A stretch of DNA of 44,219 bases from Escherichia phage vB_EcoS-12210I: sequence record NC_049813.1; one strand, given 5' to 3'. The stretch's first letter is position 1. The number at the start of each line of letters is the position of its first letter. A program made the translations under genes and the position numbers. Below the pieces are notes generated by a model, which was not told where the DNA came from, searched no databases, and saw only the letters and a program-made list of their open reading frames with translations. Below are positions 4,972 to 24,540 of this stretch, piece by piece.

Positions 4972-4975
4972 ATAT

Positions 4976-4999
4976 AAAGCCCCTTTCGGGGCTTTTGTT
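4976..4999. terminator. Bidirectional rho-independent terminator
   Basis: Hairpin AGCCCC-TTTC-GGGGCT with flanking T/A runs between convergent genes. Confidence 0.7.
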
Positions 5000-7900
5000 T
5001 TAGAACGTACCTACCACAACTCTTCCCCCTCCAGGTAAGTTAACCGTGATTCCGTTTCCGTTAATCTGTACCGTATTATTTATTCCGTTGAATGCGAACT
5101 CACCACTGTTGGCGTACAGTTTACCGCGAATCTCAGCGTTACCAGACTTATCAATCCTCCAGCCTGTGCTTCCTGCTACGTAGTTGCTGGACTGAATAAA
5201 GTCACCAATCTTCGCGTTAGTAATTGAGCCATCGCCAATTACCGCACTTTGGATGATTACGTTTCCGTTCTCTACAACGAAGGGGAGTTGCCACTGACCG
5301 GAACCAGAACCAATGCCGTTACTGATTGCGAATCTGTTTGCGTCAAAAATGAATTGACTACGAACATTACCACCAGTGCCAACAAGCTCCATACTCATGC
5401 CGGATGAATAAGTCTGCCCATTGTATTTCAGGCCAAGGCTAATTCCGTACTGCACTCCAGTTGATGTGGCATTAGAGAATGCGTCTAATTTCTGGTTTAG
5501 AGCCGCCTCGTTTTCACCGAGCCTTGCTGATAGAGCCGTGTCTGCTGTAGTCCTTGCTTCTGTCTCTGTGGCTAATGCAGTCTGAACTTCAGTAATCGAC
5601 GCTACAACTTCATCATCTATCTGCGCCTTAAGCTGTGTGAGAGCCTCTACGCGCGCCTGAGTTTCATCGGCTATGAGATTAACAGCCTGAACATATTCAG
5701 CCTTACGTTTGCCGTTCTCCTTAGTCATACGACGAACATCAGTGTCATTAGCCAATGCGTTCTGAAGGATTGATTCTGCCTGGTTCTGAATGTCCTGATT
5801 CTTTTGAATCGCATTCTGCTCGAGGTATTTGAATCCTTCCGAGCCCTCAATATCAACCTTGATGTAATCATTGATAATATTGGCGTCGTCAGTACTCATG
5901 CCTCTTGCGAAATTAGACCAATCAGATGTGTTACCGATTCTGTCAATCAATCTTGCGCGATACCAGATAACCTTTCCTGGCTGAATTGGTGTGTGCCAGT
6001 ATTCATAGGCTGGATAAGGCAGTAAAGTCAGCAAACTTGCGTTATCAGGATTATAAGTACCGTCACCATTATCAGGAACCTGCTGAAGTTCAGTGTAAGC
6101 AGTATCACCAGATCCTTCAGGAAATCCCCATTTAACACGGATGCCAAATACTTCATCAGTTGATGCAGTGATAACTGTAGGCGCAGACGGGCGGCCAATC
6201 TTACCAGTTAGCGATACAGTTACAATGTCAGACCAGGCAGACACGTTTTCAGTATCTGATACGCTGCGAACCCTAACGTCATAGATTCCTGCGTAAATAC
6301 CTTCGATATCAACCTCTGCGCTAGCTGTTCTGGGTACGTTAATCCAGTTGCCATTCTCTTTTCTCCACTGAACATTGTAGGTTTTAGCATATGGAGCCTT
6401 GTCCCAGCCAATTACCATCGTCTCGACTGACAAGCCCTGAACAACCTTACTGTAGCTTGACACTGTTAAATTCTCAGGCGGCGACAATCTGTCAGGCTCT
6501 ACGATTGAAGTCGGACGATCAACGATGTTAACGCCGTAGTCAATCTCGTCATACTTGTTCGGGTCATACTCTACTGCGGTAATCGTGTACTGGAATGAAT
6601 CCGAACCATCAGAATCCGCTTTTTGAATCCCGGTCACAACATACTGCTGAAGCGCCAGATTATCCTTATCGATTGCGAATACAGTGTCAGGCTGAGCTAC
6701 AAAGCTGAAAGCCGTGTTCAGGTTAATCGTCATACCATCCTCAGATACGCTTGCAATAGTTCTTGCCTCCGGGCTTCCGTCGGGTTTGTTCAGAAGAATT
6801 CTGTCACCTGGAGCTGCGTCAACTTTAAACGGGGTAAAAACCTGCAATCCCTGAACTGACTCAATGCGACCGGAAAGGTTTAACTGATAGTTGCTCGACC
6901 ATGCTGCGTCATTAACCGCAATAACCTCTCCAATCATCGGAATCATGCCTTCCAACCCGGTAGTGAAGCTAATAGTTTCGCTTCTCAGATTGGTTTTAAG
7001 GAGCCACCTACCACGTCTGTTTGCTTCACTTCTGCGAGTACAGCCAATCGCAGTTAAATCTACAGGGTTAAATCCAAAACGACGAGTTGCCTCTAATTCA
7101 AATACCGGCTCTACATCTTGTTGATAGTTGTTCTCTACATCATCAAACTGGACGTTAGCAGTAGTGTAAAGGCTCTTATCGCTGGCAAATGTGCGACTGA
7201 ACAATCCATTAACAACGTTATCATTCGTGAAGATGTAAGATGGATTACGAGGCTTATCAACCACGACGCCAATCTTTTCACCGTCATAGAAGGTTAGGCC
7301 ACGGAAGATTGAACAGATATCACGAATTAGCGTGTAAGCCTCAGCTTTATTCTGGACAACCATATCGCAAAGATAACGAGGCTCTAAACCACCCTTACCA
7401 TCAGGAACCATCTGGTCGCAGAATTGCGCGGCTTCGTACAGCCCCCATTTATCAATCTCTACACCTAGCTCTCGCTGGTCAAGACCATATCGGCGGTTTG
7501 TCACCAAGTCATAAAGAACCCACGCTGGGTTATTTGACCATGCCATCTTGAACAAACCGTTCCATGTCCCGCTGTAAGTTCTGGTTTCAGGGTCGTAGTT
7601 AGTTGGGACCTGAATCAGCTTCCACCTCTTCTTGATTGAGATTGTTGGAATCCCGTTAGGGAAAAGGTCAGAGCCGAACTCAACATAAACCAGGGCCGTA
7701 AGCGGATATCGGAATTTAGCGTCGATTACCTCCTGATAGGTTGTGATCTGCATTCCGTTAACCAGGGTGCTACTTGTTGAGTCTGGTGTGATCTTACGGA
7801 TGCGAACCAATGCGCTATCAAATTCAGCAGGAAGATTTACACGAATGCTGCGGTCGTAACCAGTTGTTGTCTTCCCGTTAGCAACTCCTCGAGTGTATTC

Positions 7901-8410
7901 CTGGTAAGCTCCACCATTAACAGAAAGGTCAATTGCATACTCGCAGGTTGTCCCGTTCAGGTCACCGTTACTCTCTTGCTTAACCAGTCTGGGCCAATAT
8001 AGCTTTACACGAATCGCTGATAGCTGATTATTGTTAACCGCAATGATGTGCGGGGTATCGTTTTTGATTTCCCTTGATACCTGAATTTCTGAGTTGGCAC
8101 CATCAAGGCCAGCGATATAGTCCTGATACTGCGTGCCAGCACGGAACTCAGCGCGAACACCTTCATAGTTGTAACTACCATCCTGATTTTGTACCGGAAC
8201 GTCAGCAAGGTATAAATCCTTCATTGAGAAGTTTGAATCCACCTCTCCGTCAGCAACCGCAAGCAACACCTTAACCTTGTTTAATGAAATAAGGTTGTCT
8301 TCCTGCTCAACTGGTTGATGCTGCTTCTGGCTACCACCTTTAGCACCATAAATCTTAATATCTTCAGCCATATCACAAAGCCTCATGTTTGTTTTGATCA
8401 TTTGTGCCAT
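5000..8410 (-). CDS. Central tail fibre / host specificity protein (lambda J-like), 1136 aa
   Basis: Size and position after I/K/L/M-like genes. Confidence 0.75.
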   Translation of the reverse strand: MAQMIKTNMRLCDMAEDIKIYGAKGGSQKQHQPVEQEDNLISLNKVKVLLAVADGEVDSNFSMKDLYLADVPVQNQDGSYNYEGVRAEFRAGTQYQDYIAGLDGANSEIQVSREIKNDTPHIIAVNNNQLSAIRVKLYWPRLVKQESNGDLNGTTCEYAIDLSVNGGAYQEYTRGVANGKTTTGYDRSIRVNLPAEFDSALVRIRKITPDSTSSTLVNGMQITTYQEVIDAKFRYPLTALVYVEFGSDLFPNGIPTISIKKRWKLIQVPTNYDPETRTYSGTWNGLFKMAWSNNPAWVLYDLVTNRRYGLDQRELGVEIDKWGLYEAAQFCDQMVPDGKGGLEPRYLCDMVVQNKAEAYTLIRDICSIFRGLTFYDGEKIGVVVDKPRNPSYIFTNDNVVNGLFSRTFASDKSLYTTANVQFDDVENNYQQDVEPVFELEATRRFGFNPVDLTAIGCTRRSEANRRGRWLLKTNLRSETISFTTGLEGMIPMIGEVIAVNDAAWSSNYQLNLSGRIESVQGLQVFTPFKVDAAPGDRILLNKPDGSPEARTIASVSEDGMTINLNTAFSFVAQPDTVFAIDKDNLALQQYVVTGIQKADSDGSDSFQYTITAVEYDPNKYDEIDYGVNIVDRPTSIVEPDRLSPPENLTVSSYSKVVQGLSVETMVIGWDKAPYAKTYNVQWRKENGNWINVPRTASAEVDIEGIYAGIYDVRVRSVSDTENVSAWSDIVTVSLTGKIGRPSAPTVITASTDEVFGIRVKWGFPEGSGDTAYTELQQVPDNGDGTYNPDNASLLTLLPYPAYEYWHTPIQPGKVIWYRARLIDRIGNTSDWSNFARGMSTDDANIINDYIKVDIEGSEGFKYLEQNAIQKNQDIQNQAESILQNALANDTDVRRMTKENGKRKAEYVQAVNLIADETQARVEALTQLKAQIDDEVVASITEVQTALATETEARTTADTALSARLGENEAALNQKLDAFSNATSTGVQYGISLGLKYNGQTYSSGMSMELVGTGGNVRSQFIFDANRFAISNGIGSGSGQWQLPFVVENGNVIIQSAVIGDGSITNAKIGDFIQSSNYVAGSTGWRIDKSGNAEIRGKLYANSGEFAFNGINNTVQINGNGITVNLPGGGRVVVGTF

Positions 8411-8422
8411 TCTACACTAAAT

Positions 8423-8443
8423 AAAAAACCCGCACTAGGCGGG
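8423..8443 (-). terminator. Intercistronic hairpin with U-run (I-J junction)
   Basis: CCCGC-ACTAG-GCGGG followed by T6 on the minus strand. Confidence 0.5.
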
Positions 8444-8451
8444 TATGATGT

Positions 8452-9024
8452 TTAAGCAATGTCTTCGGAATAACTGCCAGCACTAAATACCGAACCGCCA
8501 ACCGTTCGATAACCATAAGGTAGGCAAACAGGATAACCAGCGGCTACAGTGTTTACAGCTGAGCCAAATGCGTAAGAGGCGCGGTTGCTTGTTTGGTTGT
8601 CCTGCGTCTTTAATCCAGTTGCTTGAGGTGAAAGTAGCTGGGCAATACCGCCAGCAGCCAGAGAAACACCAGCGCCAACAAGATAAATCTGCCCGGTAAA
8701 GATGCCAACCGTGATAAGAGCGGCGCCTAAAATAGTCTGAAAAAGCCCGCCAGACTTACGGCCTTGAGGGATTGGTAAGATGCGTATCTCCTGAACGGCA
8801 CTAAAATCAGCTATTCGATGCTCGTTCACATTTTTACCATCCACAAAAATAGCATATCTGGTGTTTTGACCTACATGGCTATTCATGAACTCCTTGAACG
8901 CAGGGATCTGTGAGCAAAGTGCCCGCATAGCTTCAGGCACGCTACTCACCGCCATCTGGTGAATCTTTCCAAACCTGCGGCCTAGTGACAGGCCCAACTT
9001 AATGTCAATCAGCTTCTGAGTCAT
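8452..9024 (-). CDS. Tail assembly protein I-like
   Basis: 190 aa with hydrophobic Gly/Ala-rich C-half; synteny K-I-J. Confidence 0.65.
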   Translation of the reverse strand: MTQKLIDIKLGLSLGRRFGKIHQMAVSSVPEAMRALCSQIPAFKEFMNSHVGQNTRYAIFVDGKNVNEHRIADFSAVQEIRILPIPQGRKSGGLFQTILGAALITVGIFTGQIYLVGAGVSLAAGGIAQLLSPQATGLKTQDNQTSNRASYAFGSAVNTVAAGYPVCLPYGYRTVGGSVFSAGSYSEDIA

Positions 9025-9763
9025 AAATTACATCCTCTGGTAAATCCTTGTGGCGAACAATTCGCACAGTGCGCTCCCTCCAGTAATCGGAGTAGATATC
9101 AACGGAACTCATTTTACCATAAAGGTGATGAATGAATCTGTTATTGCCAATGTAGATTCCGGCGTGGTTTGTCACCTCACTTTGCACCTGCATCATAATC
9201 ATGGAACCAATCGGAATATCTGAAGTTTTTACCAGCTCAAATCCTTCCTTAATCCAGTTGTCATCATAGATATTTTCATTGTACCGCTTCTCCCACCACG
9301 GGTAATTAACGCGGTAGTCATTCAGTTTGACGCCGTATTTCTTATGGAATGCCATTACCAACTCCCAGCAATCAAAGCTACCAAGCCCCCACGGGCGACC
9401 AATCAGTGGCATCGTTGATGGCTCAAGAATACGCATATCTCCCTCCGGGATGCTTACAATAACATACGGAATCTCGCACTCATTGCAGCTACAGATATCC
9501 GCTGGGCTTGGTCTTGTTGTTGCTCCATCGCCCGTGTGGGAGTGAACTACGTAAACAATGGACTCATTATCCGCTAGGTTGAATGCGACACTAGCATACT
9601 CATTTGAATCAAGGAGGAATTCATTCTCTGGGTCTTTGCTGGCGTTGGTGATTCTGTGATACTTCTGAGCGCGACCCTTTTGTGTGACAACTCCGCAGCA
9701 TTCATGCGGGTAATCCTCTTTTGCGTGCTGAAAGATTTCAAGTTTAACTTTTGGTGTTAACAT
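9005..9763 (-). CDS. Tail assembly protein K-like (MPN/JAB plus NlpC/P60 domains)
   Basis: JAMM-like HSHTGDGATTRPSPAD and Cys/His peptidase residues (DCWELV...H). Confidence 0.75.
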   Translation of the reverse strand: MLTPKVKLEIFQHAKEDYPHECCGVVTQKGRAQKYHRITNASKDPENEFLLDSNEYASVAFNLADNESIVYVVHSHTGDGATTRPSPADICSCNECEIPYVIVSIPEGDMRILEPSTMPLIGRPWGLGSFDCWELVMAFHKKYGVKLNDYRVNYPWWEKRYNENIYDDNWIKEGFELVKTSDIPIGSMIMMQVQSEVTNHAGIYIGNNRFIHHLYGKMSSVDIYSDYWRERTVRIVRHKDLPEDVIYDSEAD

Positions 9764-9773
9764 TTATTTCTCC

Positions 9774-10529
9774 TTAACTCTGGTTGGCTTTAGCTTGAAG
9801 GCTTGCTGCAGCGCAGCCGCCGAAATCTAACTGATTATTCTCACCAAATCTAAGTTTGCAACTGTTAACAGTTCCTGCACAGAAGTCTAAAGACGGGTCA
9901 TCAACTGGCTTATCATCCTTATTAAAGTATCTATTTCCATCATAAGTACACCCATTACCGCTACGATACCAACCCCTAGAAGCCCAGTAGCAAACAGACT
10001 GAACAAGTCTTGCGGGGATATAAATACCATCCATATCCATCGGGCTACTTAGCTCAAATGATGCGGTTTTATAATCAACCTGCTTAGGTCGCTCAATGAA
10101 GTAAACGAATCTGCGATAGTCCCCATCAGCAATGCTTCCGTCTTCATTGATGTTGTCTCGCGTAGTAATCCAGATAGTAACCTTAGCCTTAACCAATCCG
10201 TTGTATGTGCGGATAAGTGCGCTAATGCGCTGGTCCACGTTTGATACCGTTAACGTAACCTTGTTAGCCTTGCCGTCAGAAGTCATATTGATACCCGAGA
10301 TACCGAAAGGTCTAGGTCCGTACTCTTCACCGCGGAAGGTGATGGTTTTCTCTGGTAGTGGCTCGCCATTCATCTGGGCCAGCATGATCTCTTCTGGCGT
10401 GTATGAAATATTCTCATTGTGGAAGTTGTAAACGAGACTTCCGAAGGAGGTTCCGTCAACCTGGATTAGTGTCACAATCTCGCCAGGGAAAAGGCTTTGC
10501 AACTGATTTTCAAACTTTGGACTTAGCAT
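9774..10529 (-). CDS. Minor tail protein L-like
   Basis: Synteny; ATG at 10529 with GGAG RBS (the track ORF begins at an upstream TTG). Confidence 0.65.
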   Translation of the reverse strand: MLSPKFENQLQSLFPGEIVTLIQVDGTSFGSLVYNFHNENISYTPEEIMLAQMNGEPLPEKTITFRGEEYGPRPFGISGINMTSDGKANKVTLTVSNVDQRISALIRTYNGLVKAKVTIWITTRDNINEDGSIADGDYRRFVYFIERPKQVDYKTASFELSSPMDMDGIYIPARLVQSVCYWASRGWYRSGNGCTYDGNRYFNKDDKPVDDPSLDFCAGTVNSCKLRFGENNQLDFGGCAAASLQAKANQS

Positions 10530-10542
10530 ATATTTCTCCAAT

Positions 10543-10565
10543 AAAAAAGCCCCGCATAGGGGCTT
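10543..10565 (-). terminator. Intercistronic hairpin with U-run (M-L junction)
   Basis: GCCCC-GCATA-GGGGC then T6, GGAG RBS, ATG; near-identical cassette at 22295-22318. Confidence 0.55.
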
Positions 10566-10568
10566 AGT

Positions 10569-10919
10569 TTAACGCATTGAACTAAATACTTCTACGAATT
10601 GCATGCTTACAGTCTGAACTTCCTTACTGACTGGTGTGACGCTAATACTATCCTGCTGAATAACAAACATGGATGTGTCGCCCTGCGGCGTAGTCCAGAA
10701 GAACGGGGTAATGATGTGGTTGAAGCAGAAATCCATGACATCTCGCCAGTCCTTGTTGGTATATGTCATCTGGTAGCTTCTGGTGTTGCTCCTGTATCCA
10801 CCAGTACCCCTTTGGGTGTAACCATTGCCGAAGCTAACTATTCGCACATTGTTCGTGTTAGAGAACGAGCCGCCTCCATTTTGGATTTGAGTGCACCAGG
10901 TAAATTTATCAATAGCCAT
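10569..10919 (-). CDS. Minor tail protein M-like
   Basis: 116 aa directly downstream of the tape measure gene. Confidence 0.6.
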   Translation of the reverse strand: MAIDKFTWCTQIQNGGGSFSNTNNVRIVSFGNGYTQRGTGGYRSNTRSYQMTYTNKDWRDVMDFCFNHIITPFFWTTPQGDTSMFVIQQDSISVTPVSKEVQTVSMQFVEVFSSMR

Positions 10920-10946
10920 AAAAATCCTTAGGGGCCGAAGCCCCGT
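10920..10946 (-). terminator. Intercistronic hairpin (tape measure-M junction)
   Basis: GGGGCCGAAGCCCC followed by T5. Confidence 0.5.
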
Positions 10947-10949
10947 TAA

Positions 10950-13925
10950 TTAGTTGAATCCACGAAGGTAGGCATACGCCCTACCACCCTGCTGGAAGGA
11001 CTGAGCAATCTCTTCGGCTACGATAGCCTTGACTCCGCTTTGCAGTGCCTTAGCTTGTTCTGGGTCGCTACCTACACCCGAGTTTACGTTAACAGTGATA
11101 CCACTAACATTAACATCTGCTCCACCAGAAACCAAACCACCATTTGCATAACCAGAAGGGCCACCAACAACACCGCCATTTGCGTAACCCTTCATTAGTG
11201 CGTAAAGGTTCTTAACACCAATTCTGCTAGTCGCTTCTTTTGTGAATACAAACTCACCGCGGTGCACCGTTCCTGCTGGCTGATACTTACCACCATTGCC
11301 AGTATAGCCGCCACCAGCAAAACCCAGGCCAGAAGCAATTGAACCAAAGGCGCCGCCAGTACCGCCGAAGCTACTTAAACTGGACTCAATAGCCTTGACA
11401 ATAAGAAGCTGAGTTGCAATCTTGGCAATCATTTTGAGGATGCTTGCTGTGAACTCCCTAAAATTGGTCTCACCAGTGGTTACAAGGTTTGTAATTTGCT
11501 CTGTTATCCCGTCAAATGCCGCAACGGTTAAGTCCTTAGCAATCTGGTTGTAGTCAGTGTACTTATCTGTCAAGTCAGCGAGAGTGGATATTACACCGGA
11601 TTGCCAGTCTGACCTAAGATTATCCTCTTGCTTGTAGTATTCCTTTCTTGCTTCCAGCAATTGCTGAAAATCAACATCATCAAGAGAGCCACCAGCATTG
11701 ACCTGATTGGACTGAAGAGCCTGAATCTCTTTGGCTCTTTGCAGTTCACGAGATGATAGTCCAGTACCCAAATTAATATTGCTTGCCTCATTGTTAATCT
11801 GAAGAATCTTCTTGCGGTTATCTTCAGCCAACTTATTAGCTCGCTCCTGCAAAGCAATCTGATCACCTAGCTCAGCCTTCTGTCTTGCCAGCTCAAGAAC
11901 TTTATCCTTTTCAATGAGAAGTCTTGCTTGCTCTTTGGTAATTGAGCCATCAAGTTGCCTCTGCTCAAGAATCTGGAATTTGGCAACCTCCTGAAGATAC
12001 TGCTTGCGCTCATTGCTTATTACCGCGCCGATATCCCTGTTTTCCTGAAGAACCTTGAGCTGAGCCTGGAGCGCCAACACGCCAGATTCGTAACCAATTG
12101 TAAGGTCTCTTTGCTCTTTAACCCTACCATTTTCTTCTTTCCTGCTCTTCTTGATCGCATCAAGTTCATCCTGAAGCGCCTTCTTCCTTTTTGCAAACTC
12201 CTCATCAGTACCTGATTGCTCATTGGAATTCTGATTTTCCCTGCGTGTAACGTAACCAAGTTCTCCCTCTCTGATTCTGGCATCTCTCTCCCTGATAGAC
12301 TTCTCTAGCTCAAGGTTTTGCTTCTTGGCGGCATCGATAATCTTCTGCTGACTCTTGATTACATCATCACCGACACCATCAAGGCCTGGGATATTCTGCA
12401 ATGCCTGAGTTGCACTAATTACAAACTCACCAATCAGCGCGTCACCTTGGTTAATGAAGACCTTAATCTGTTCAATTGTCCCGGCTATTACATCAACAAA
12501 CAGGTTTAGCGCCCCAACCGTTCTGCGACTAATCGCATCCCATACATCAGATATGTACTTCCTGAAGTCATTCCAGGCCAATTCAAGAGGAGTAAGCTGG
12601 GCTGCAATATCGTTAAGGTTTGCTTCCTGTGATTTGCTAAATATATCAATAGCAGCAGTTACGGCTTCAACCTCACCCCTAGTCTCTCTCAATCTTTCAA
12701 TTGTTGTTAACTGCCCCTGAGTAAGGAAGTTAAACCTCTTGTCTAAATCAGCAAGTCCTTGAATTGGGTCGCTCGCAATCTGGTTATAGTAACCAGTAAT
12801 TTCCTTTGCATCCTTACCTGTCAACTGCGCCCATCTGGCGGTAGATTTAGTAATCTTGTCAATCTGCGTCAGCGTAAGGTTCCCTTGCTCAATAAGGCTT
12901 GTTGCGATGCTAGTCACAAGTCCTCTGGTTGCACCAGTAGCATCAGAAACAGAGCTAACCAACTCTCTAACCTGCGAGATTGATGCGATTGTGGAGTTGT
13001 TTGAGAACGCAATGGCAGAATTTAATGCTCTGAATTCACTCTCTGCCTGGGCAGCACCGATACCTAGAGCAACAAGCGCGCCACCCAAAACCCCAACAGC
13101 AACATTGAATGGATTTAAGGCTGCAAGCGCGAATCTAAAGGTGTTACCAATACCTCCAAATGCATCCTTAATTTGTCCGCCTTGCTGAATTGCAATAAGC
13201 CAAATCGGAATGCCGCCAGCAAGTGATGTCCCAATATCTGTAATCTGCGCTGGCAATTGAGAGATTGCAGCCTTGTATTGGCCTGCGCTTAAGCCAGAGC
13301 GTTGAAAGGCCTTGCTCTGAGCAATTAGCTGGGTGTTTGCCTTCTGTGATGCATCGGCGATTCTGTCAATAATAGGCGCTGCCTGAGAACTTACGCCAAG
13401 CTGAGCAGCCTGTAATTTTAAGTACTCCTCACGCGTCAATGTTGCCGCTTGAGCCTGACGCTCAAGTGATGCAATGAATCTATCCGCTTCAGCCTTTGCC
13501 TTTGCCTTATCCTTTGCAGCTTGCGCTGCCGCTCTACCCTCTTCAGTTAGTGCCGCACGTGAACGAGCAAGTTTTGCGTTCTGCGTTTCAAGCGCCTCAC
13601 CTAAGCGGAAAAACTCCTCATCAGGAACTACGCCAGCCGCGAATGCCTTATCAAGACCTACCGCTGCCTCTTGCAGCTTACGGAACTTTGCCGCAGTTGG
13701 GTCAATAGCCGTTTGCAATTTAGCCAAAGATGCTTGCTGTTCAGCAAGTGCGCGAGCCGTGTCTCTAGCCTGGTTTTTAGCAACCTGCTCAGCGTTGACG
13801 AACTCACTAATACCGGAAGCAGCCTGCTGGTTTGCCTGCCTGAACTTTTGTAGGGACTGCGTACCCCTGTCTACTTGCGATACGTCTACGGCTAGTGTGA
13901 TTCCGGCTAATTCATTTGTTGCCAT
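10950..13925 (-). CDS. Tail tape measure protein, 991 aa
   Basis: Long Ala/Gln/Glu-rich helical protein with Gly-rich C-terminus, downstream of G/GT. Confidence 0.8.
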   Translation of the reverse strand: MATNELAGITLAVDVSQVDRGTQSLQKFRQANQQAASGISEFVNAEQVAKNQARDTARALAEQQASLAKLQTAIDPTAAKFRKLQEAAVGLDKAFAAGVVPDEEFFRLGEALETQNAKLARSRAALTEEGRAAAQAAKDKAKAKAEADRFIASLERQAQAATLTREEYLKLQAAQLGVSSQAAPIIDRIADASQKANTQLIAQSKAFQRSGLSAGQYKAAISQLPAQITDIGTSLAGGIPIWLIAIQQGGQIKDAFGGIGNTFRFALAALNPFNVAVGVLGGALVALGIGAAQAESEFRALNSAIAFSNNSTIASISQVRELVSSVSDATGATRGLVTSIATSLIEQGNLTLTQIDKITKSTARWAQLTGKDAKEITGYYNQIASDPIQGLADLDKRFNFLTQGQLTTIERLRETRGEVEAVTAAIDIFSKSQEANLNDIAAQLTPLELAWNDFRKYISDVWDAISRRTVGALNLFVDVIAGTIEQIKVFINQGDALIGEFVISATQALQNIPGLDGVGDDVIKSQQKIIDAAKKQNLELEKSIRERDARIREGELGYVTRRENQNSNEQSGTDEEFAKRKKALQDELDAIKKSRKEENGRVKEQRDLTIGYESGVLALQAQLKVLQENRDIGAVISNERKQYLQEVAKFQILEQRQLDGSITKEQARLLIEKDKVLELARQKAELGDQIALQERANKLAEDNRKKILQINNEASNINLGTGLSSRELQRAKEIQALQSNQVNAGGSLDDVDFQQLLEARKEYYKQEDNLRSDWQSGVISTLADLTDKYTDYNQIAKDLTVAAFDGITEQITNLVTTGETNFREFTASILKMIAKIATQLLIVKAIESSLSSFGGTGGAFGSIASGLGFAGGGYTGNGGKYQPAGTVHRGEFVFTKEATSRIGVKNLYALMKGYANGGVVGGPSGYANGGLVSGGADVNVSGITVNVNSGVGSDPEQAKALQSGVKAIVAEEIAQSFQQGGRAYAYLRGFN

Positions 13926-13940
13926 CTAAGCCTCCATAAT

Positions 13941-13970
13941 AGAAAACCCGCCGAAGCGGGTTATTTTTTT
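13941..13970. terminator. Hairpin with runs on both sides (GT-tape measure junction)
   Basis: ACCCGC-CGAA-GCGGGT; T7 on plus side. Confidence 0.5.
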
Positions 13971-14595
13971 CTCAGGTTGTCCATCATCTCAAGAGCTTTA
14001 GCTTCAAGGATGCGTAAATCACTGAGCACCAATTCTTCTTCAGAAACATTATACACTCTAAAGAGGAAATTTAGCACGTTGTAATCAAGACCTGTTACTC
14101 CATTAGCTCCGACTCGCCACTGTGTAGCCATTGAACAATAAATGTCCCACGCCTTCATCATGTTATCGTCGAAGTGCAAAACTTCAGGCTCTTCGTCTTC
14201 GTAATCAGAGCGGCGCATCCCAATAGCTTCCAGTTCGGCATCAGTTGGTTCTGACTGGTACTGTAGATACACCGCTCGTTTTAGTTTTTTACACGCTGAC
14301 CAGCCAGTGCTTGCATATAGGCGGTAGTTAGCGCAACGGTTGAAGCAGGGAATAGGTCACAGAACTCATTAACGTTATCCTCGTTGTATTCCTCTTCCAA
14401 GTCCCAGTCAGAGGCAATTGCCATAATAAGCTCTTTGGTGCTCAAGTCTTCCTTTCTAAGTAATTCCTGCAACTCAGATGTTTTCTTATGTTTGACTGTA
14501 AAGATAACCTCTACATCCTGGTCGTTAGCCAGCTTAAATTTTACAGGCAACTTAAAGTCAGGGAGTGCTGCCAGTGAAAGTTTGAACTTTGCCAT
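13961..14595 (-). CDS. Tail assembly chaperone GT fusion made by -1 programmed frameshift
   Basis: Slippery heptamer AAAAAAC at 14284-14290 abuts the G stop; the -1 frame is open into the downstream ORF. Confidence 0.65.
14281..14595 (-). CDS. Tail assembly chaperone G-like, 104 aa
   Basis: Acidic small protein between major tail protein and tape measure. Confidence 0.7.
   Translation of the reverse strand: MAKFKLSLAALPDFKLPVKFKLANDQDVEVIFTVKHKKTSELQELLRKEDLSTKELIMAIASDWDLEEEYNEDNVNEFCDLFPASTVALTTAYMQALAGQRVKN
14284..14290 (-). other. -1 frameshift slippery site A_AAA_AAC
   Basis: X_XXY_YYZ heptamer in the G frame, 0 nt before the TAA stop. Confidence 0.65.
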
Positions 14596-14633
14596 TTTGT
14601 TAATCCTCTTATTGTTTGTGAGTGTGTATTCTA

Positions 14634-14882
14634 TTACTTAGTGTTTTCTTTTGCAATCTTAGCAGCGGTATCCTTGCAAATCTCGCTACCATATTTCATG
14701 ATTTGGTCAACTTTACCACCTACCAAACCCTTGCAAACTCGCTCGGCCTTAGCAAACTCAAAGTTATATTCGCTTGCCTTTGCATTGGCATAAGTCTCGC
14801 CAGTTGGGTTAACAATCTTAACTACCGCATAAAAAGCAACCAGAACCGCAGTAAGTTTGATGATGTTTTTAACGTTATTCAT
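14634..14882 (-). CDS. Moron-like secreted or membrane-anchored small protein, 82 aa
   Basis: N-terminal hydrophobic signal/anchor; own promoter-like module upstream and terminator-flanked; lies inside the tail gene cluster. Confidence 0.5.
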   Translation of the reverse strand: MNNVKNIIKLTAVLVAFYAVVKIVNPTGETYANAKASEYNFEFAKAERVCKGLVGGKVDQIMKYGSEICKDTAAKIAKENTK

Positions 14883-14915
14883 TTAATTAATCTCTCATTT
14901 CGTTTCGATGAGTTA

Positions 14916-14961
14916 ACTATACAGGAAGATTGGATTAACTCTTTAGCAAAAAGTGCCATGC
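14916..14961 (-). promoter_or_regulatory. Promoter-like module copy d (variant element) with TATAGT hexamer
   Basis: Element 14942-14961, hexamer 14916-14921, start region CATCGAAACGA downstream. Confidence 0.5.
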
Positions 14962-14964
14962 AAT

Positions 14965-14986
14965 AAAAAACCCTCCGAAGAGGGTT
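14965..14986 (-). terminator. Rho-independent terminator after the major tail protein gene
   Basis: CCCTC-CGAAG-AGGG followed by T6. Confidence 0.65.
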
Positions 14987-14992
14987 TGTGTT

Positions 14993-15649
14993 TTAAACTT
15001 TAGCTGCCACGGAGGACAGTCGACCACGAATGGATACCGCCATGGATACCGTTTCGATTTCGTTGACACCAATGGCAGGGATGTCATTGAAAGAGATAGT
15101 GCCGGACTGCAAGCGCATTTCCTGAGCGCGAGGTACGAACAGACGAATCGCAACAACCTGGCCAGACTCATCGTATTTACGCAGAACCGGATAGACCGGG
15201 TTGGTGTACTCGTGAGCAAAGGTGAAGGTGTTTGTTACCGCAGATTTATAAGTCGGAATCTGCTGTTCGCGTTCGTCAGAAAGGCACTGGAAGTTAACAA
15301 ACTGCTGTTCGCCGCCGTCAGTAGATACGTCCTGAACACACGGGACTTCGATCCATGAATTAATCTTAACAACCTCACCAGTTAAGCCAGCAGGGAACTT
15401 AGTGGCGTCGGAGGTATCAATACCTTCAACTGTTACCGAAGTGCCAGAAACTTCAGTTACTCGCACCTGTTTGTCGCTAAGTAGGGTTGAGCTGGAGGCG
15501 GTAAACAGAAGGTAGTCACCCTTAGCCAGGCCAGATGCGCTAGATACGGTTAAAACTGGTTTAGTTGCGTTAGAGATTTTAGTTACGTTAATTGGAGTTC
15601 CGCGAGTTCCTTCTACGAAGACCTGCGTGCCATTTGATAAATGAGCCAT
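14993..15649 (-). CDS. Major tail protein
   Basis: 218 aa immediately upstream of G/GT. Confidence 0.7.
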   Translation of the reverse strand: MAHLSNGTQVFVEGTRGTPINVTKISNATKPVLTVSSASGLAKGDYLLFTASSSTLLSDKQVRVTEVSGTSVTVEGIDTSDATKFPAGLTGEVVKINSWIEVPCVQDVSTDGGEQQFVNFQCLSDEREQQIPTYKSAVTNTFTFAHEYTNPVYPVLRKYDESGQVVAIRLFVPRAQEMRLQSGTISFNDIPAIGVNEIETVSMAVSIRGRLSSVAAKV

Positions 15650-15664
15650 GTATTTTTCCTTTTG

Positions 15665-16066
15665 TTAGTCTAGACGAACATAAAAATGAACCGGGATAAA
15701 CCACCCAGACTTGGATTTGATAACCGGGTTAACAACTCCAGACTCGTAAATGGTCCCGGTGTCAAGCATTGTACCATCAACGATAGATTCTGCCAATTGA
15801 TTAGCGATTTGTCTAGGCTTATCAATGCCAGTACCTGGACTGAAGAAGACAGAAACCTGCACCATCCCTACATAGTATTTGCACTTCCTGCTCAGCCCGT
15901 ATGTTACGGTGTCAACCTCGATGTAGTCATACTTTAGCCAGATAGAACCATCTGCTGGAGGAGTGAAAGCAACGTTTTCCCAAGATACTGGATATCTGAC
16001 TGGGAAGTTTTTCACCAGCAAATCATTAACATATTTCCTGGCAGCTATAGACAATTCATAGTGCAC
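15665..16066 (-). CDS. Putative tail terminator protein
   Basis: Position upstream of major tail protein (lambda U-like slot). Confidence 0.4.
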   Translation of the reverse strand: MHYELSIAARKYVNDLLVKNFPVRYPVSWENVAFTPPADGSIWLKYDYIEVDTVTYGLSRKCKYYVGMVQVSVFFSPGTGIDKPRQIANQLAESIVDGTMLDTGTIYESGVVNPVIKSKSGWFIPVHFYVRLD

Positions 16067-17282: not shown

Positions 17283-17308
17283 TAAAGGACGCCGAAGCGC
17301 CCTGTTTG

Positions 17309-17554
17309 TTATTTGTACTCGTTGCCAGTCTCAGCTTCGGAGATAGTTTTCGGTTCTTTGCGCTTTTTCTTGCTAACAATTTCTTGCGCGATTTGCTTGG
17401 TTGCTTTAGCGTCACCTTCAATAGTGAGTTTACCCTCTGCGATTAAACGCTTGAGTCCGTCGCAAATTACATCAACCTCAAAAGTGTCACCAGGCAAATA
17501 TTTCTCACCCTTGTAAACGATAAGGCAAGCGCCAGTGTGTTCTAAACGAATCAT
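17309..17554 (-). CDS. Hypothetical protein, 81 aa
   Basis: ORF downstream of the major capsid gene. Confidence 0.4.
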   Translation of the reverse strand: MIRLEHTGACLIVYKGEKYLPGDTFEVDVICDGLKRLIAEGKLTIEGDAKATKQIAQEIVSKKKRKEPKTISEAETGNEYK

Positions 17555-17618: not shown

Positions 17619-17641
17619 AAAAAAAGCCCTCCGAAGAGGGC
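17619..17641 (-). terminator. Rho-independent terminator after the major capsid gene
   Basis: GCCCTC-CGAAG-AGGGC followed by T7. Confidence 0.7.
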
Positions 17642-17647
17642 CATTTA

Positions 17648-18664: not shown

Positions 18665-18688
18665 AAAAAAAACCTCCCGAAGGAGGCT
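18665..18688 (-). terminator. Hairpin with U-run
   Basis: CCTCC-CGAA-GGAGG followed by T8. Confidence 0.6.
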
Positions 18689-18704
18689 TTATATATCTTA
18701 ATTA

Positions 18705-19214: not shown

Positions 19215-19226
19215 GTTTATAACTCC

Positions 19227-21056: not shown

Positions 21057-22281
21057 TAATCGTCACCTCTGTCTCTACTGAACCGTCACTAATCTTAACC
21101 TCTGGAGCGATTGCGCGCAATGTATCTCTCGCTTCGTCAATATCCATAGCGCCAGATGCAATTAGCGTCGCGATGCTGTTTACGTTCTTCTCAAGAATCT
21201 CGGCCTTATCCTTACTTGATTCCTGCGCTAGGGGATTAAACTCCACTGACCATTCTTGCTCGTCTGAAATGAACGGAATCAGGAACCCGAGAATCGGCAG
21301 TAGTTCAGCGTTACGCTTGCGATCGACTAGCTTATGGAATGTCTCCAATGCGGTGTTCTGACTTGATGATACGCCGCCAACGTTCTTGTTCTTCAGGATA
21401 ATCTCATGAATACCGCTCAGCGCAACGATTCTGTCGAACTTCTTATCCAGGAACGCATCAATCCCGCCAATATCAGAGTTCAGAACACTGTATTCTTCAG
21501 ACTCTGCGTCAATGCCAATTGCCTGACCAACGCCACTATTGTTATCAACCTGAGCTAGGCGCAATCTTGCAGCGCCAAATCCTTCGCTATCATCACACAA
21601 TTCAGCAAGACCCTTGGCTTTCCACACCGCCTGCTGCTTGCGCTTCAGTAACTGCGTAGCAAGTAGTTCGCAGTTGGTGTAATCCTTAATTGAGTCAAGA
21701 ATGTCACTGGAGAGAACGCTGCGGCCCCAGCCATCATTCTGCCGACGCATTACGTTAGGAATTCGCTCTCCGTCAATGATGTGAATGCGGCTGTAGTGCA
21801 CATCATAGAACATATCGCTCTCATTAGTTGTGATGCGATAGGTTAGTGGCTTACCAAAACGCGCGTTGCGTGGGTTCTCCTCGCGAGTCTGGACTTTTAC
21901 CTGCGTACGGTCGTAAACGCGAACAGTTTCAAGTTCAGCGCCTTCTCTGACCGGACTTGTTAGCGCCCTATTGTCCTTAACGATAGCGACAATGGCAGAA
22001 CCGCCGAACAATCTCGCCCATGACCAGGCTTCATTGATGTGCTTTGTTAGTTCTAGGTAGTCCCAGCGCGACCAGAATGCAGGCTCATCATCAATTCCAT
22101 CAATGTGGAATCCTGCCGCTAATGCTGTTTCCGGGATTGTGTCGATTATTCGACGCACCAGCGCATTATCCGCATAAAGCGAAGCTAGAATTGTAGGGGC
22201 TTGGCTCTGCAAGCTCCCGTAAATCTCACTACCATCACTGCCGCCTAGAAAGATATTGGCGTAGCTGTCTGTCTTGACCAT
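21013..22281 (-). CDS. Portal protein
   Basis: About 422 aa after terL; start reset to ATG 22281 with GGAG RBS because the track N-terminus runs through a hairpin. Confidence 0.7.
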   Translation of the reverse strand: MVKTDSYANIFLGGSDGSEIYGSLQSQAPTILASLYADNALVRRIIDTIPETALAAGFHIDGIDDEPAFWSRWDYLELTKHINEAWSWARLFGGSAIVAIVKDNRALTSPVREGAELETVRVYDRTQVKVQTREENPRNARFGKPLTYRITTNESDMFYDVHYSRIHIIDGERIPNVMRRQNDGWGRSVLSSDILDSIKDYTNCELLATQLLKRKQQAVWKAKGLAELCDDSEGFGAARLRLAQVDNNSGVGQAIGIDAESEEYSVLNSDIGGIDAFLDKKFDRIVALSGIHEIILKNKNVGGVSSSQNTALETFHKLVDRKRNAELLPILGFLIPFISDEQEWSVEFNPLAQESSKDKAEILEKNVNSIATLIASGAMDIDEARDTLRAIAPEVKISDGSVETEVTISETSNDPLEVSADN

Positions 22282-22294
22282 GTTTTTCTCCAAT

Positions 22295-22318
22295 AAAAAA
22301 GCCCCATACACGGGGCTA
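22295..22318 (-). terminator. Intercistronic hairpin with U-run (terL-portal junction)
   Basis: GCCCC-ATACAC-GGGGC then T6, GGAG, ATG; paralogous to 10543-10565. Confidence 0.55.
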
Positions 22319-22329
22319 GTTTATCACGC

Positions 22330-23904
22330 TTATTTAATTCCTGCGAGGCGTAACATCCGCGATTTAGGGTCATCTGCAAGGTTTAGCTCGCAGTTTATTG
22401 CCATTGTTGTTGTATCTACAATGTCATCATGGCGGTGGCTCATGTCTGCTGTAAATGCTGAAAACTCAGAGATGAATGCACTCATCCACGGCGCCGATTC
22501 TGGAATCATTACATTTCCAGCCTTAATCTGAGGCATTGCTGACAGCACTCTGGTAACTTTATCTGTATCTGGTATAAATGGCTCAATAGGTGTACGCATA
22601 ACCCTGCTTGCAGATTGAATCAGACCGATACCAGATGCTTTCTTCTCGATGATTACCTTCCGAAGAATACCCTCCTCCCGATTAGTCTTTCTCGCATTGG
22701 ATTCAAACTCTAGCAAGGTAGCCTCAAGCTCGGGCGCTTCATACTTACCCCTAACCATATCAAGAAGGTATAGCTTTCTGTCTTTTACTCCCCACAGCTG
22801 GAATACACTAAAGTCACTGTACGACTTCGTGGTAAGCGCGGTATCCGCAGTAATAAATCGGTAATCATACTTCAATGGCGCTCGCAAATCTCCACCGTAA
22901 CGTATAAACCAATCCGTATCCACCATGTTGCCACCTAGAGCTATGGGGCTTTGCATATATTGACTTGCGAACGTGTATGGGTCTGCGTCTTGCATAGCCA
23001 TTAAATCATGAATGGATTCCTTTTGTGGGTAGTAGCTGTAGTACTTAACACCATCTCGCTCGATGTACTCACTAGATAGAACGTCAGCCTCGAAGTGTGG
23101 TTTTAACCAGTCAGGAAGTGTGTCGATGTAATCCTCAGTAACTATCGCCGGAATCTTCACCACATCGAAGTCTATCCCCATACCTCCAGATTCAGCCATG
23201 AACCAACTTGAGTCGTTAACATGCAATCGCTGCTGTATGGAAATAATTGGTGTGGCCTTACCCTTGACCGAGCTAGCCCTACGAGAGCGAATGGTGTTCT
23301 TCAGGAGCATATGAACCGACTCTCGGCGAACCTTGCTAAACATGTCATCAACCTTATCTACATCATCCAGCATAAGGCAACCACTATAGGTGTCAGTAAT
23401 GTAGCCGCCACGTGAACCTGTAATCTGGCCTCCGATAGCTTTTGATATCGACTCAAAGCGAACCTTGCCTGACTCATCGAGAACCTGAATCTCATCATCC
23501 TTGCACGTGCCAAACTTGCTAGGGAATAGCTCCTGAAACTCCTTGCACTTAATTAGGTCGCGCACTCGCTTAGAGTTTCGCTTAACCAGGCTATCAGAGA
23601 ACGAAAGGCTAAGATTTCGCACTTTTGGTAGTTTTAGATAGCTATAAACTGGAAAGTGGATGGATGTGATCTCGGTTTTACCGGCGCCAGGCGATACGTT
23701 TATGATTGTATCCTTTCGATCTCCGCTAATAATCTCGTCAACTATCCTGCAAAGATACCTGTGATGCCAGTTCATGATGTACTTCTGGCCCTGTGTCAGG
23801 CTGAACCATACCCGAAGGAATGTCTCGAAGTTATGCGTGGAAAGAAGCCTGATGGCTTGCTTTTCTGATTGGGATAGCTCCTCCCAAACTAAAACATCAC
23901 TCAT
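22330..23904 (-). CDS. Terminase large subunit
   Basis: 524 aa with Walker A-like PGAGKT and acidic C-terminal nuclease region; position. Confidence 0.8.
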   Translation of the reverse strand: MSDVLVWEELSQSEKQAIRLLSTHNFETFLRVWFSLTQGQKYIMNWHHRYLCRIVDEIISGDRKDTIINVSPGAGKTEITSIHFPVYSYLKLPKVRNLSLSFSDSLVKRNSKRVRDLIKCKEFQELFPSKFGTCKDDEIQVLDESGKVRFESISKAIGGQITGSRGGYITDTYSGCLMLDDVDKVDDMFSKVRRESVHMLLKNTIRSRRASSVKGKATPIISIQQRLHVNDSSWFMAESGGMGIDFDVVKIPAIVTEDYIDTLPDWLKPHFEADVLSSEYIERDGVKYYSYYPQKESIHDLMAMQDADPYTFASQYMQSPIALGGNMVDTDWFIRYGGDLRAPLKYDYRFITADTALTTKSYSDFSVFQLWGVKDRKLYLLDMVRGKYEAPELEATLLEFESNARKTNREEGILRKVIIEKKASGIGLIQSASRVMRTPIEPFIPDTDKVTRVLSAMPQIKAGNVMIPESAPWMSAFISEFSAFTADMSHRHDDIVDTTTMAINCELNLADDPKSRMLRLAGIK

Positions 23905-24472: not shown

Positions 24473-24495
24473 AAAAAAAGCCCTCAAGCGAGGGC
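24473..24495 (-). terminator. Rho-independent terminator separating the early block from terS
   Basis: GCCCTC-AAGC-GAGGGC followed by T7. Confidence 0.7.
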
Positions 24496-24540
24496 TAAAA
24501 ACAACGAGAGAAACGAAACTTTACAAGGGTATAACACTTT

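What the first reader, a model, noticed from the sequence alone, without database searches (positions are those of the whole stretch)
10536..10570. Duplicated hairpin-RBS cassette at two late-operon junctions
Nearly identical sequences (TTTCTCCAATAAAAAAGCCCC-loop-GGGGCT-AGTTTA) occur at 10536-10570 (M/L junction) and 22285-22320 (terL/portal junction). Each gives, on the minus strand, a GC hairpin, a U-run, then GGAGAAA and the ATG. Similar hairpins separate many late genes. They may be partial terminators setting protein stoichiometry or RNA processing sites, apparently copied as a unit.
Basis: seen in the sequence. Interest (0 to 1): 0.35.

Follow-up and report, generated by a model that had tools for sequence, protein, structure and literature searches.

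The report
Terminator hairpins fused to ribosome sites
Two near-identical 40-base junctions in this T1-like coliphage are ordinary terminator-type RNA hairpins whose U-run leads straight into the next gene's ribosome-binding site, a layout already annotated in phages T1 and TLS and common in unrelated phages.

Summary
On the minus strand, 10533-10571 (between the lambda M-like and L-like tail genes, "M/L") and 22285-22323 (terL/portal) both read TAAACTA-(A)GCCCC-loop-GGGGC(U)-UUUUUUAUU-GGAGAAA-N3-AUG. They share an exact 21-mer found nowhere else in the window.

The window is Escherichia phage vB_EcoS (Veterinaerplatzvirus, Drexlerviridae). Both hairpins are ancient orthologous features:
- A hairpin plus U-run sits at the M/L junction in 79 of 80 related loci and at terL/portal in 52 of 55.
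- The stems differ through compensatory changes, while the U-run stays constant.

GenBank T1 annotates the M/L hairpin as a rho-independent terminator. The TLS paper lists the terL/portal hairpin as terminator T30.

The shared 3' half is a generic idiom. T1 has the same 16-mer at a non-homologous junction. More than 120 unrelated viral contigs carry the 17-mer, mostly behind a hairpin and before a start codon.

Best reading: these are leaky intrinsic terminators fused to Shine-Dalgarno (SD) sites, not a recently copied unit. A stoichiometry role at these two junctions is unsupported.

More interesting side findings:
- A -10-like element abuts the terL/portal hairpin in every relative examined.
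- The family's 21-nt repeat promoters carry a hairpin around their -10 hexamer.

Nothing here is backed by transcript data.

The parts
10527..10571 (-). Cassette A, complete: stop codon of the M-like gene (10569-10571, the TAA of TAAACTA), hairpin, U-run, Shine-Dalgarno (SD) sequence, and start codon of the L-like gene (10527-10529).
   Evidence: genes
10547..10565 (-). Hairpin A: stem AAGCCCC/GGGGCUU (7 bp, 5 G-C pairs), loop UAUGC, -12.0 kcal/mol.
   Evidence: orthologous hairpin in 79 of 80 related loci with 12 distinct arm pairs
10540..10548 (-). U-tract A: UUUUUUAUU. The first two U are paired in the stem. 3' ends are expected near 10541-10544.
   Evidence: U-run invariant in relatives
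10533..10539 (-). SD plus spacer GGAGAAA of the L-like gene. Unpaired in the minimum-free-energy fold.
22279..22326 (-). Cassette B, complete: UGAUAAACU (a -10-like, TG-extended element; possible remnant of the 21-nt direct repeat, 'DR'), hairpin, U-run, SD, and portal start codon (22279-22281). The terL stop codon lies 12 nt upstream of the stem, at 22330-22332.
   Evidence: genes
22300..22317 (-). Hairpin B: stem AGCCCC/GGGGCU (6 bp), loop GUGUAU, -11.5 kcal/mol.
   Evidence: orthologous hairpin in 52 of 55 related loci with 8 distinct arm pairs; equals TLS terminator T30
22292..22300 (-). U-tract B: UUUUUUAUU. 3' ends are expected near 22293-22296.
22285..22291 (-). SD plus spacer GGAGAAA of the portal gene.
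13945..13962 (-). Third short-form junction (tape-measure chaperone to tape-measure protein): hairpin, then UUUUCUAUUAUGGAGG.
17286..17303 (-). Fourth short-form junction (orf81 to virion structural protein): hairpin, then UUUAUUGUAUGGAG.
24479..24496 (-). Long-form junction before terS: hairpin plus U7, followed by the extended -10 TGGTATAAT, a leader and the SD.
18669..18690 (-). Long-form junction before the major capsid gene: hairpin plus U8, followed by TTGCGT-N16-TATAAT.
17625..17642 (-). Long-form junction after the major capsid gene: hairpin plus U7, then a TATAAT-containing leader.
14968..14987 (-). Long-form junction after the major tail gene: hairpin plus U-run, followed by a DR-type promoter (DR at 14959).
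8428..8444 (-). Long-form junction between the I-like and J-like genes: hairpin plus U6, followed by TGTAGAAT.
4976..4995 (.). Bidirectional hairpin closing the late operon after the J-like gene.
10931..10944 (-). Hairpin GGGGC-UUCG-GCCCC between the tape-measure and M-like genes with no U-run. It is therefore not terminator-like.

Best explanation
Sites A and B are two orthologously conserved intrinsic (Rho-independent) terminator signals of the T1-like late region, in its compact 'short form'.

Anatomy. An A-rich 5' flank precedes a 6-7 bp G+C-rich stem-loop. A U6-A-UU tract follows and runs directly into the GGAGAAA Shine-Dalgarno (SD) sequence of the next gene.

Proposed mechanism (inferred):
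1. Host RNA polymerase reaching the U-tract pauses. Hairpin formation then releases a fraction of transcripts about 7-9 nt after the stem.
2. The remaining polymerases read through and supply the essential downstream genes.
3. The released RNA ends in a hairpin that protects it from 3' exonucleases.
4. In read-through RNA, the hairpin stays locally folded. The U/A-rich tract and the SD stay single-stranded for the ribosome.
5. Leakiness is expected to depend on translation. At site A the stop codon of the M-like gene lies only 3 nt before the stem; at site B the terL stop lies 12 nt before it. A terminating ribosome would therefore cover the 5' arm.

Why the two sites look alike. They obey the same constraints and probably share ancestry at the base of Braunvirinae. 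They are not a recent copy.
For: Shown here:
- Canonical terminator anatomy, on the transcribed strand only.
- In the 22 late junctions, U-runs occur only behind hairpins. Nine of ten hairpin junctions have one, and none of the 7 non-overlapping junctions without a hairpin do.
- A hairpin plus U-run is present at M/L in 79 of 80 and at terL/portal in 52 of 55 related loci across Drexlerviridae. There are 12 and 8 distinct arm pairs respectively. All inner 5 pairs are kept through CG<->GC and CG<->AU changes. Pairing falls to 68% and 55% when the 3' arms are permuted.
- The U-run columns are invariant.
- The SD is unpaired in the fold.

From records and papers:
- T1 GenBank annotates 'terminator, rho-independent' at M/L (22793..22816). 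It also annotates several terminators that abut an RBS.
- The TLS paper lists the terL/portal hairpin as T30, 21 terminators in all, and the T1 'transcripton' model (PMC11447400).
- 18-21 terminators are predicted in Rogue1-like phages (PMC4070988) and 8 in SU57, which is in the same genus as the window (PMC7718038).
- Lambda tR2 is almost fully repressed when placed a few bp after a stop codon, and reaches full efficiency only beyond about 30 bp (PMC4824070).
Against: - No transcript 3'-end data exist for any T1-like phage that I could find. All terminator calls, including the published ones, are in silico.
- Neither site leaves room for a promoter between the U-run and the SD. Yet the abundant decoration protein lies downstream of B, and the essential L, K and I genes lie downstream of A. 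A strong terminator is therefore excluded.
- If read-through is near complete, 'terminator' describes the shape rather than the job.
- The specifically shared TAAACTA flank is kept even when a different ORF lies upstream. The generic terminator model explains it only as an A-tract.
Confidence: 0.6

Rival explanations
1. Overlapping promoter/terminator, mainly at site B. A -10 element (UGAUAAACU in the window; TATAAT, TACAAT or TAAAAT in relatives) sits 0-4 nt before the stem. Host polymerase would then start about 7 nt downstream, inside the 5' arm or loop (predicted start near G22311). Transcripts from upstream terminate at the hairpin. New transcripts lack the 5' arm, escape termination and feed the portal-to-decoration genes.
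For: - Every distinct terL/portal junction has a TAnnnT hexamer directly before the hairpin: TAAACT, TACACT, TACAAT, TATAAT or TAAAAT. Variation is confined to the weakly constrained hexamer positions.
- In Braunvirinae the hexamer carries a TGn extension. In L020 the TG is lost while the hexamer improves to TACAAT.
- In most T1-like relatives the 21-nt direct repeat ('DR') that marks the family's promoter-like modules lies immediately upstream, at the canonical ~75 nt from the portal ATG.
- The element is kept when an extra ORF is inserted upstream.
- Genes needed in quantity lie downstream of B with no other intergenic promoter.
Against: - There is no -35 match in the window, and the consensus scan did not call a promoter here.
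- TAAACT matches the -10 consensus at only 4 of 6 positions.
- A-rich 5' flanks precede nearly all hairpins in this genome, so this may simply be the terminator A-tract.
- At site A the motif overlaps the stop codon, and other clades have no -10-like hexamer there.
- There are no 5'-end data.
Confidence: 0.2
2. RNA-stability or processing elements with negligible termination. The hairpins would act as 3' exonuclease blocks, and the U/A-rich tract as an RNase E entry site. The polycistronic late RNA would be cut into segments with different half-lives.
For: - The hairpins sit within 3-12 nt of stop codons, where ribosomes repress termination (PMC4824070).
- One late junction (10931-10944) has a similar hairpin with no U-run.
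- Read-through must be high, given the essential genes downstream.
Against: A stabiliser hairpin does not need a U-tract. Yet the U-run is the most conserved part of both junctions across the family, and it occurs only behind hairpins. RNase III needs far longer duplexes than 6-7 bp (established knowledge).
Confidence: 0.12
3. A cassette copied as a unit, either by recent duplication or gene conversion, or as a mobile regulatory cassette comparable to the promoter/stem-loop cassettes (PeSLs) of T4-type phages.
For: - The two sites share an exact 21-mer plus TAAACTA and the same GCCCC stem core.
- The 5' element travels with the hairpin when ORFs are inserted upstream.
Against: - There are only two copies, each in front of a conserved core gene.
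- Each is more similar to its ortholog in other phages than to its partner.
- In Rogue1-like phages the stems differ between the two sites: GACCC or GGGCCC at A, GCCCC or GCCCCU at B. The flanks stay the same.
- The same 16-mer occurs at a different junction in T1.
- The 17-mer occurs in more than 120 unrelated viral contigs, 74% behind a hairpin and 86% before a start codon.
Confidence: 0.06

Closest known systems
Predicted rho-independent terminators and 'transcriptons' of the coliphage T1 late region (Roberts, Martin & Kropinski 2004, as cited in PMC11447400; features in GenBank AY216660)
   Same: The hairpin sits at the same junction: T1 M/L terminator 22793..22816. The hairpin-plus-U-run anatomy is the same. 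T1 also has several terminators abutting an RBS, including the identical string TTTTTTATTGGAGAAA at 16129.
   Different: At M/L, T1 has the long form: the terminator is followed by TGTAGAAT, a leader and an SD. The window has the short form with no room for a promoter. The T1 record does not annotate the terL/portal hairpin, although it is present in the sequence.
TLS terminator T30 (ggctggaatattccggcctttttattat, 10914..10941; PMC11447400, Supplementary Table S1)
   Same: It is the ortholog of site B: terL/portal junction, hairpin plus U-run directly before the portal SD.
   Different: The stem sequence differs (GGCUGGA/UCCGGCC) and the loop is A/U-rich. It is preceded by TAAAAT rather than TAAACT.
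Internal, leaky intrinsic terminators in phage structural operons, such as T7 T-phi after the capsid gene (my own knowledge), and terminators mapped by ONT-cappable-seq in Pseudomonas phages (PMC10914365)
   Same: These are hairpin plus U-tract signals inside a co-directional gene block, with read-through. The Pseudomonas phage work also found terminators directly downstream of promoters, inside 5'UTRs.
   Different: Those were mapped experimentally and these were not. Here the U-tract is fused to the next SD, and two of the sites do not follow abundant-protein genes.
PeSL promoter/stem-loop cassettes of T4-type phages (Arbiol et al. 2010; from memory, not checked here)
   Same: Short repeated regulatory cassettes containing a stem-loop, found at gene borders of a virulent phage.
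   Different: PeSLs are many-copy and flank variable ORFs. Here there are two copies in front of conserved core genes. The mobile units seen in relatives carry their own DR promoter instead.

Membership tests
Intrinsic (Rho-independent) terminator | G+C-rich stem of about 5-14 bp with a 3-8 nt loop | tested here: met
   A: 7 bp with 5 G-C pairs, loop 5. B: 6 bp with 5 G-C pairs, loop 6. Energies -12.0 and -11.5 kcal/mol.
Intrinsic (Rho-independent) terminator | U-rich tract immediately 3' of the stem, on the transcribed strand | tested here: met
   UUUUUUAUU at both sites, minus strand only. The tract is invariant in relatives.
Intrinsic (Rho-independent) terminator | Structure rather than sequence is conserved (compensatory changes) | tested here: met
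   12 distinct arm pairs at A and 8 at B, all fully paired. Pairing is 68% and 55% after permuting the 3' arms. Caveat: the hairpins were located by a pairing-based finder.
Intrinsic (Rho-independent) terminator | RNA 3' ends or transcript release at the U-tract | not testable with these tools
   No T1-like transcriptome was found.
T1 'transcripton' boundary (terminator followed by an RpoD promoter) | Promoter between the terminator and the next gene | tested here: not met
   The U-run is contiguous with the SD at A and B. The feature is met at five other late junctions of the window and at the orthologous M/L junction of most Tunavirinae.
RNase III processing site (T7-type) | Extended duplex of about 20 bp or more | tested here: not met
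   The stems are 6-7 bp. The extended A-tract:U-tract pairing adds only 4-6 weak pairs.
Mobile regulatory cassette (PeSL-like) | Many near-identical copies flanking variable ORFs | tested here: not met
   Two copies only, both before core genes.
Curated RNA families (Rfam 15) | Match at the gathering score | tested here: not met
   The only hit in the window is the tRNA at 24742-24816.

The most novel reading that the evidence does not exclude
In Drexlerviridae, hairpins at gene borders are built into promoters. The 21-nt repeat (DR) modules place a variable-sequence hairpin so that the -10 hexamer lies in its loop and the 3' arm ends at the predicted start site. At terL/portal this hairpin has also acquired a U-run. 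One 45-nt element would then stop incoming transcripts and start fresh ones that lack the 5' arm and cannot self-terminate. The window's site B, and perhaps site A with its DR-like GTTAAAC/TGATAAAC flank, would be degenerate descendants of such modules.
Probability: 0.2. Interest if true: 0.5.

Novelty: already known. Interest (0 to 1): 0.15.

Why it matters
As stated, the finding matters little. It re-identifies predicted intrinsic terminators that are already annotated at the same junctions in T1 and TLS.

Its practical value is to give exact coordinates and testable predictions for a Veterinaerplatzvirus genome whose public records carry almost no functional annotation. The predictions cover:
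- expected 3' ends;
- dependence of termination on stop-codon distance;
- a possible start site inside hairpin B.

The comparative data also show that T1-like junctions switch between a 'terminator + promoter' form and a 'terminator fused to SD' form. This is useful for anyone engineering these phages or mining compact terminator/RBS parts.

The open question worth real effort is a side observation: why do the family's repeat-marked promoters enclose their -10 element in a hairpin?

Tried and rejected
- RNAalifold on fixed-coordinate junction windows and MAFFT on hairpin-centred snippets put the variable-length stems out of register and gave almost no consensus pairs. I replaced them with loop-anchored pair counts in a script. 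The ascertainment caveat stands: the finder selects for pairing.
- Rfam found nothing at either site.
- The T1 genome paper (PMID 14972552) is not held. Its 'transcripton' model is cited second-hand from PMC11447400.
- I tried to collect orthologs of one DR promoter through its downstream protein. This returned only C-terminal partial matches and was dropped.
- A d'Aubenton-Carafa-type score, with the formula recalled from memory, gave d of about +10 for A and +20 for B, within the range of the other late hairpins. I treat it as indicative only.
- Ungapped flank comparison of all 55 hairpin pairs ranks A-B first: 16 of 24 positions, against a mean of 9.9 with sd 2.1. This understates the identity because of a 1-nt stem register shift.
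- RNase III processing was rejected on stem length.
- The idea that TAAACTA is merely the stop codon of the upstream gene was rejected. At B the terL stop lies 12 nt upstream, and the motif persists behind different upstream ORFs.
- The idea that the U-run belongs to the RBS (a translational enhancer) rather than to the hairpin was rejected. No hairpin-less junction has a U-run.

Full report
**What the window is.** Megablast gives 100% identity over both test segments to a set of 44,219-bp records named Escherichia phage vB_EcoS-…. These are classified as Veterinaerplatzvirus vv12210I, in Drexlerviridae, subfamily Braunvirinae (T1-like, Rtp group). The structural genes run on the minus strand from about 24.7 kb down to 5.0 kb. 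PHROG searches identify terS, terL, portal, head morphogenesis, protease, major capsid, connector and tail proteins, tape measure, and lambda M-, L-, K-, I- and J-like tail-tip proteins.

**The observation.**
- Site A, read on the minus strand from 10571 to 10527: TAA ACT AAGCCCC UAUGC GGGGCUU UUUUAUU GGAGAAA UAU AUG.
- Site B, read from 22326 to 22279: UGAUAAACU AGCCCC GUGUAU GGGGCU UUUUUAUU GGAGAAA AAC AUG.
- Site A lies between the M-like gene (10569-10919) and the L-like gene (9774-10529). Site B lies between terL (22330-23904) and portal (21013-22281).
- The two share an exact 21-mer, GGGGCTTTTTTATTGGAGAAA. The 16-mer TTTTTTATTGGAGAAA has no third copy within three mismatches (family D15).
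- The hairpin cores fold at -12.0 and -11.5 kcal/mol and leave the Shine-Dalgarno (SD) sequence unpaired.

**Census of the late operon.** The 22 junctions fall into the following groups.

| Junction type | Junctions |
|---|---|
| Short form: hairpin and U-run contiguous with the SD, spacer 35-48 nt | terL/portal, M/L, chaperone/tape measure, orf81/structural protein |
| Long form: hairpin and U-run, then a -10-like hexamer (often TG-extended), a leader and an SD, spacer 80-112 nt | before terS (TGGTATAAT), before the capsid gene (TTGCGT-N16-TATAAT), after the capsid gene, after the major tail gene, before J (TGTAGAAT) |
| Hairpin without a U-run | tape measure/M |
| Non-overlapping, no hairpin and no U-run | seven junctions |
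| Overlapping genes | the remaining five |

A bidirectional hairpin closes the operon after J. U-runs thus belong to hairpins, not to ribosome-binding sites. Terminator-like hits are about twice the shuffle expectation: 32 against 17.1 +/- 3.6 in 1-20000.

**Relatives.** I fetched the terL/portal junction from 55 viral contigs and the M/L junction from 80.
- A hairpin followed by at least five U is present at M/L in 79 of 80 loci and at terL/portal in 52 of 55 (the L075 hairpin was read by eye).
- The stems differ widely. M/L shows GCCCC, GACCC, GGGCCC, GCCCGC, GCCUCC, GCCGC, GGCCCGC, GCGCCC, GCCAGC and GGUCGCC. terL/portal shows AGCCCC, GCCCCU, GGCUGGA, GGGCUGGA, GGGCCA and GGGCUGA.
- Every inner pair is maintained through changes such as CG<->GC and CG<->AU. 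Permuting the 3' arms among sequences drops pairing from 100% to 68% at M/L and 55% at terL/portal.
- The U-run is the most conserved part of both junctions.

This is the signature of a selected RNA hairpin plus U-tract, that is, an intrinsic terminator shape. It is as old as the family.

**Short and long forms interchange.** At M/L, T1 and most Tunavirinae have the long form, with a U-run followed by TGTAGAAT, TGCTACAAT, TATGAT or similar. Braunvirinae and two other lineages (L093, L127) have the short form. Conversely, T1 has the short form after its capsid gene, where the window has the long form.

**What is already on record.**
- The T1 GenBank entry annotates 'terminator, rho-independent' at M/L (22793..22816). 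It places several other terminators flush against an annotated RBS.
- The TLS re-annotation lists 21 predicted terminators, including T30, which is the terL/portal hairpin. [quoted passage not shown]
- 18-21 terminators were predicted in Rogue1-like phages (PMC4070988) and 8 in SU57, a member of the window's genus (PMC7718038).
- All of this is in silico. I found no transcript-end mapping for any T1-like phage.

**Was the cassette copied as a unit?**

Evidence against recent copying:
- The shared 3' half is not specific. T1 carries the identical 16-mer at the capsid/orf46 junction and near-copies at three others.
In 89 of these a hairpin of at least 5 bp ends exactly at the C, and in 103 a start codon follows within 1-7 nt. 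'Hairpin-U6-AUU-GGAGAAA-AUG' is therefore a common convergent solution.
- The GCCCC stem core is used by five hairpins in this genome.
- Each cassette is closer to its ortholog in other phages than to its partner. In Rogue1-like phages the two stems differ while the flanks stay the same.

Evidence for a specific link between the two sites:
- The 5' element (G/A)TAAACTA is shared by A and B throughout Braunvirinae.
- That element stays attached to the hairpin when an extra ORF is inserted upstream: a 118-aa ORF before B in L015 and similar contigs, and a 64-aa ORF before A in L008.

Ancient common origin or a shared function of that element is therefore possible. Recent copying is not supported.

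**How the sites probably work.** I favour leaky intrinsic termination (confidence 0.6).
- The sites must leak. Portal, head-morphogenesis protein, protease and the decoration protein follow B. L, K and I follow A. There is no intergenic room for a promoter after either site.
- Experimental work on lambda tR2 offers a plausible reason for the leak. That terminator is almost fully repressed when a translated gene stops a few bp upstream, and becomes fully active only beyond about 30 bp (PMC4824070). The M-like gene stops 3 nt before stem A and terL stops 12 nt before stem B.
- By inference, termination would mainly hit transcripts not followed closely by a ribosome. Terminated RNAs would gain a protective 3' hairpin.
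- A stoichiometric role is plausible for the hairpins that follow the capsid and major tail genes. It is not plausible for M/L or terL/portal, where no step in copy number is expected (established virion biology; inference).

**The rival reading at site B.**
- Every terL/portal junction has a -10-like hexamer 0-4 nt before the stem. It is TAAACT, TACACT or TACAAT in Braunvirinae, usually with a TGn extension, and TATAAT, TACAAT or TAAAAT in T1-like phages.
- In most T1-like phages the family's 21-nt direct repeat (DR) lies just upstream.
- A start about 7 nt after that hexamer would fall inside the 5' arm or loop. Such transcripts could not form the terminator.
- This would explain how head genes downstream of B are supplied.
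- It rests only on sequence pattern, and A-rich flanks precede almost all hairpins here. I give it 0.2.

**Side observation: the DR modules.**
- The window has about 18 intergenic copies of ATAGCACnnnTTGnTAA, always co-directional with the next gene. This is the repeat published for TLS, where its function is described as unknown.
- Nearly every copy (16 of the 18) is followed at a fixed 20-21 nt by a TAnnnT-type hexamer, then 6-7 nt, then CATCGAAAC, then an SD.
- The 42 nt after the repeat fold far better than shuffles. In the window the mean z is -2.4 (Stouffer -10.4, n=18). In T1 the mean z is -3.2 (Stouffer -15.2, n=23).
- The stems differ in sequence from copy to copy, but they usually bracket the -10-like hexamer and end at the predicted start site.
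- The T1-like terL/portal hairpin fits this geometry exactly. In the window, the sequence before hairpin B (AAATAAGCGTGATAAAC; AAATAGCCGTGATAAAC in L017 and L021) looks like a decayed repeat.
- I did not find this hairpin feature mentioned in the papers I read. Its function is unexplained.

**Verdict.** The finding is a correct observation of an ordinary, already annotated kind of signal. Interest is low (0.15). The promoter-embedded hairpins are the lead worth following.

Noticed in passing
window minus strand at 695, 14959, 25610, 26442, 26882, 27335, 27841, 34789, 37121, 39617, 41169; plus strand at 2543, 3727, 29764, 30410, 32992, 33150, 40109: About 18 intergenic copies of the repeat ATAGCACnnnTTGnTAA (palindrome TAGCA-N5-TGCTA), here called DR. 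Nearly every copy (16 of 18) is followed at a fixed 20-21 nt by a -10-like hexamer, then 6-7 nt, then CATCGAAAC, then SD and ATG. The repeat is published for TLS with unknown function (PMC11447400). The fixed geometry puts the palindrome centre near -42, as for a class II activator site.
   Followed up: partly
same DR modules, the 42 nt after each repeat; also L070 (phage T1), 23 sites: A hairpin of variable sequence brackets or abuts the -10-like hexamer and ends at the predicted start site. Examples: GGGTAA-tttattatag-TTACCC at 26442, and GGGGTA-tcttgctatagt-TACCCC in T1 at 1450. Folding against shuffles gives mean z -2.4 (Stouffer -10.4) in the window and -3.2 (Stouffer -15.2) in T1. Function unknown. 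I did not see it described in the papers read.
   Followed up: partly
L028-L067 (terL/portal junction of T1-like contigs); window 22318-22340: In T1-like phages the terL/portal hairpin lies inside a DR module at the canonical distance. The DR overlaps the terL stop, and the hairpin loop falls where the -10 normally sits. In the window, the sequence before hairpin B (AAATAAGCGTGATAAAC) looks like a decayed DR.
   Followed up: partly
L015:700-1150 and L008:840-1140: Small extra ORFs (118 aa between terL and portal; 64 aa between M and L) are inserted just upstream of cassettes B and A in some relatives. Each brings its own DR promoter, which overlaps the stop codon of the upstream gene. The insert ends in ...GATAAAC next to the hairpin. 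This suggests recombination at DR-like ends.
   Followed up: partly
window 1-127 and 44093-44219: An exact 127-nt terminal direct repeat (family D2). The 41 identical-length public records are circular permutations of one another. It is most likely an assembler overlap (k=127), so the true genome would be 44,092 bp.
   Followed up: no
window 2354-2443 and 29402-29499: Two AT-rich stretches containing (TAA)n runs, followed by a 49-nt segment that is 86% identical between them (families D13 and D16). Both lie in divergent intergenic regions. They may be an origin or unwinding element, or a shared control region.
   Followed up: no
window 10931-10944 (minus strand): Hairpin GGGGC-UUCG-GCCCC between the tape-measure and M-like genes, with no U-run. 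It sits directly before the SD AAGGA, so it is not terminator-like.
   Followed up: no
window 24742-24816 (minus strand): The only Rfam hit in the window is a tRNA, annotated as tRNA-Arg(tct) in the public record. It lies just upstream of the packaging genes.
   Followed up: no
window 43623-43688: An 18-nt tandem repeat (CTGTTGCYGCTGAGGTTG, 3-4 copies) inside the minus-strand ORF 43596-44021 (family D10).
   Followed up: no
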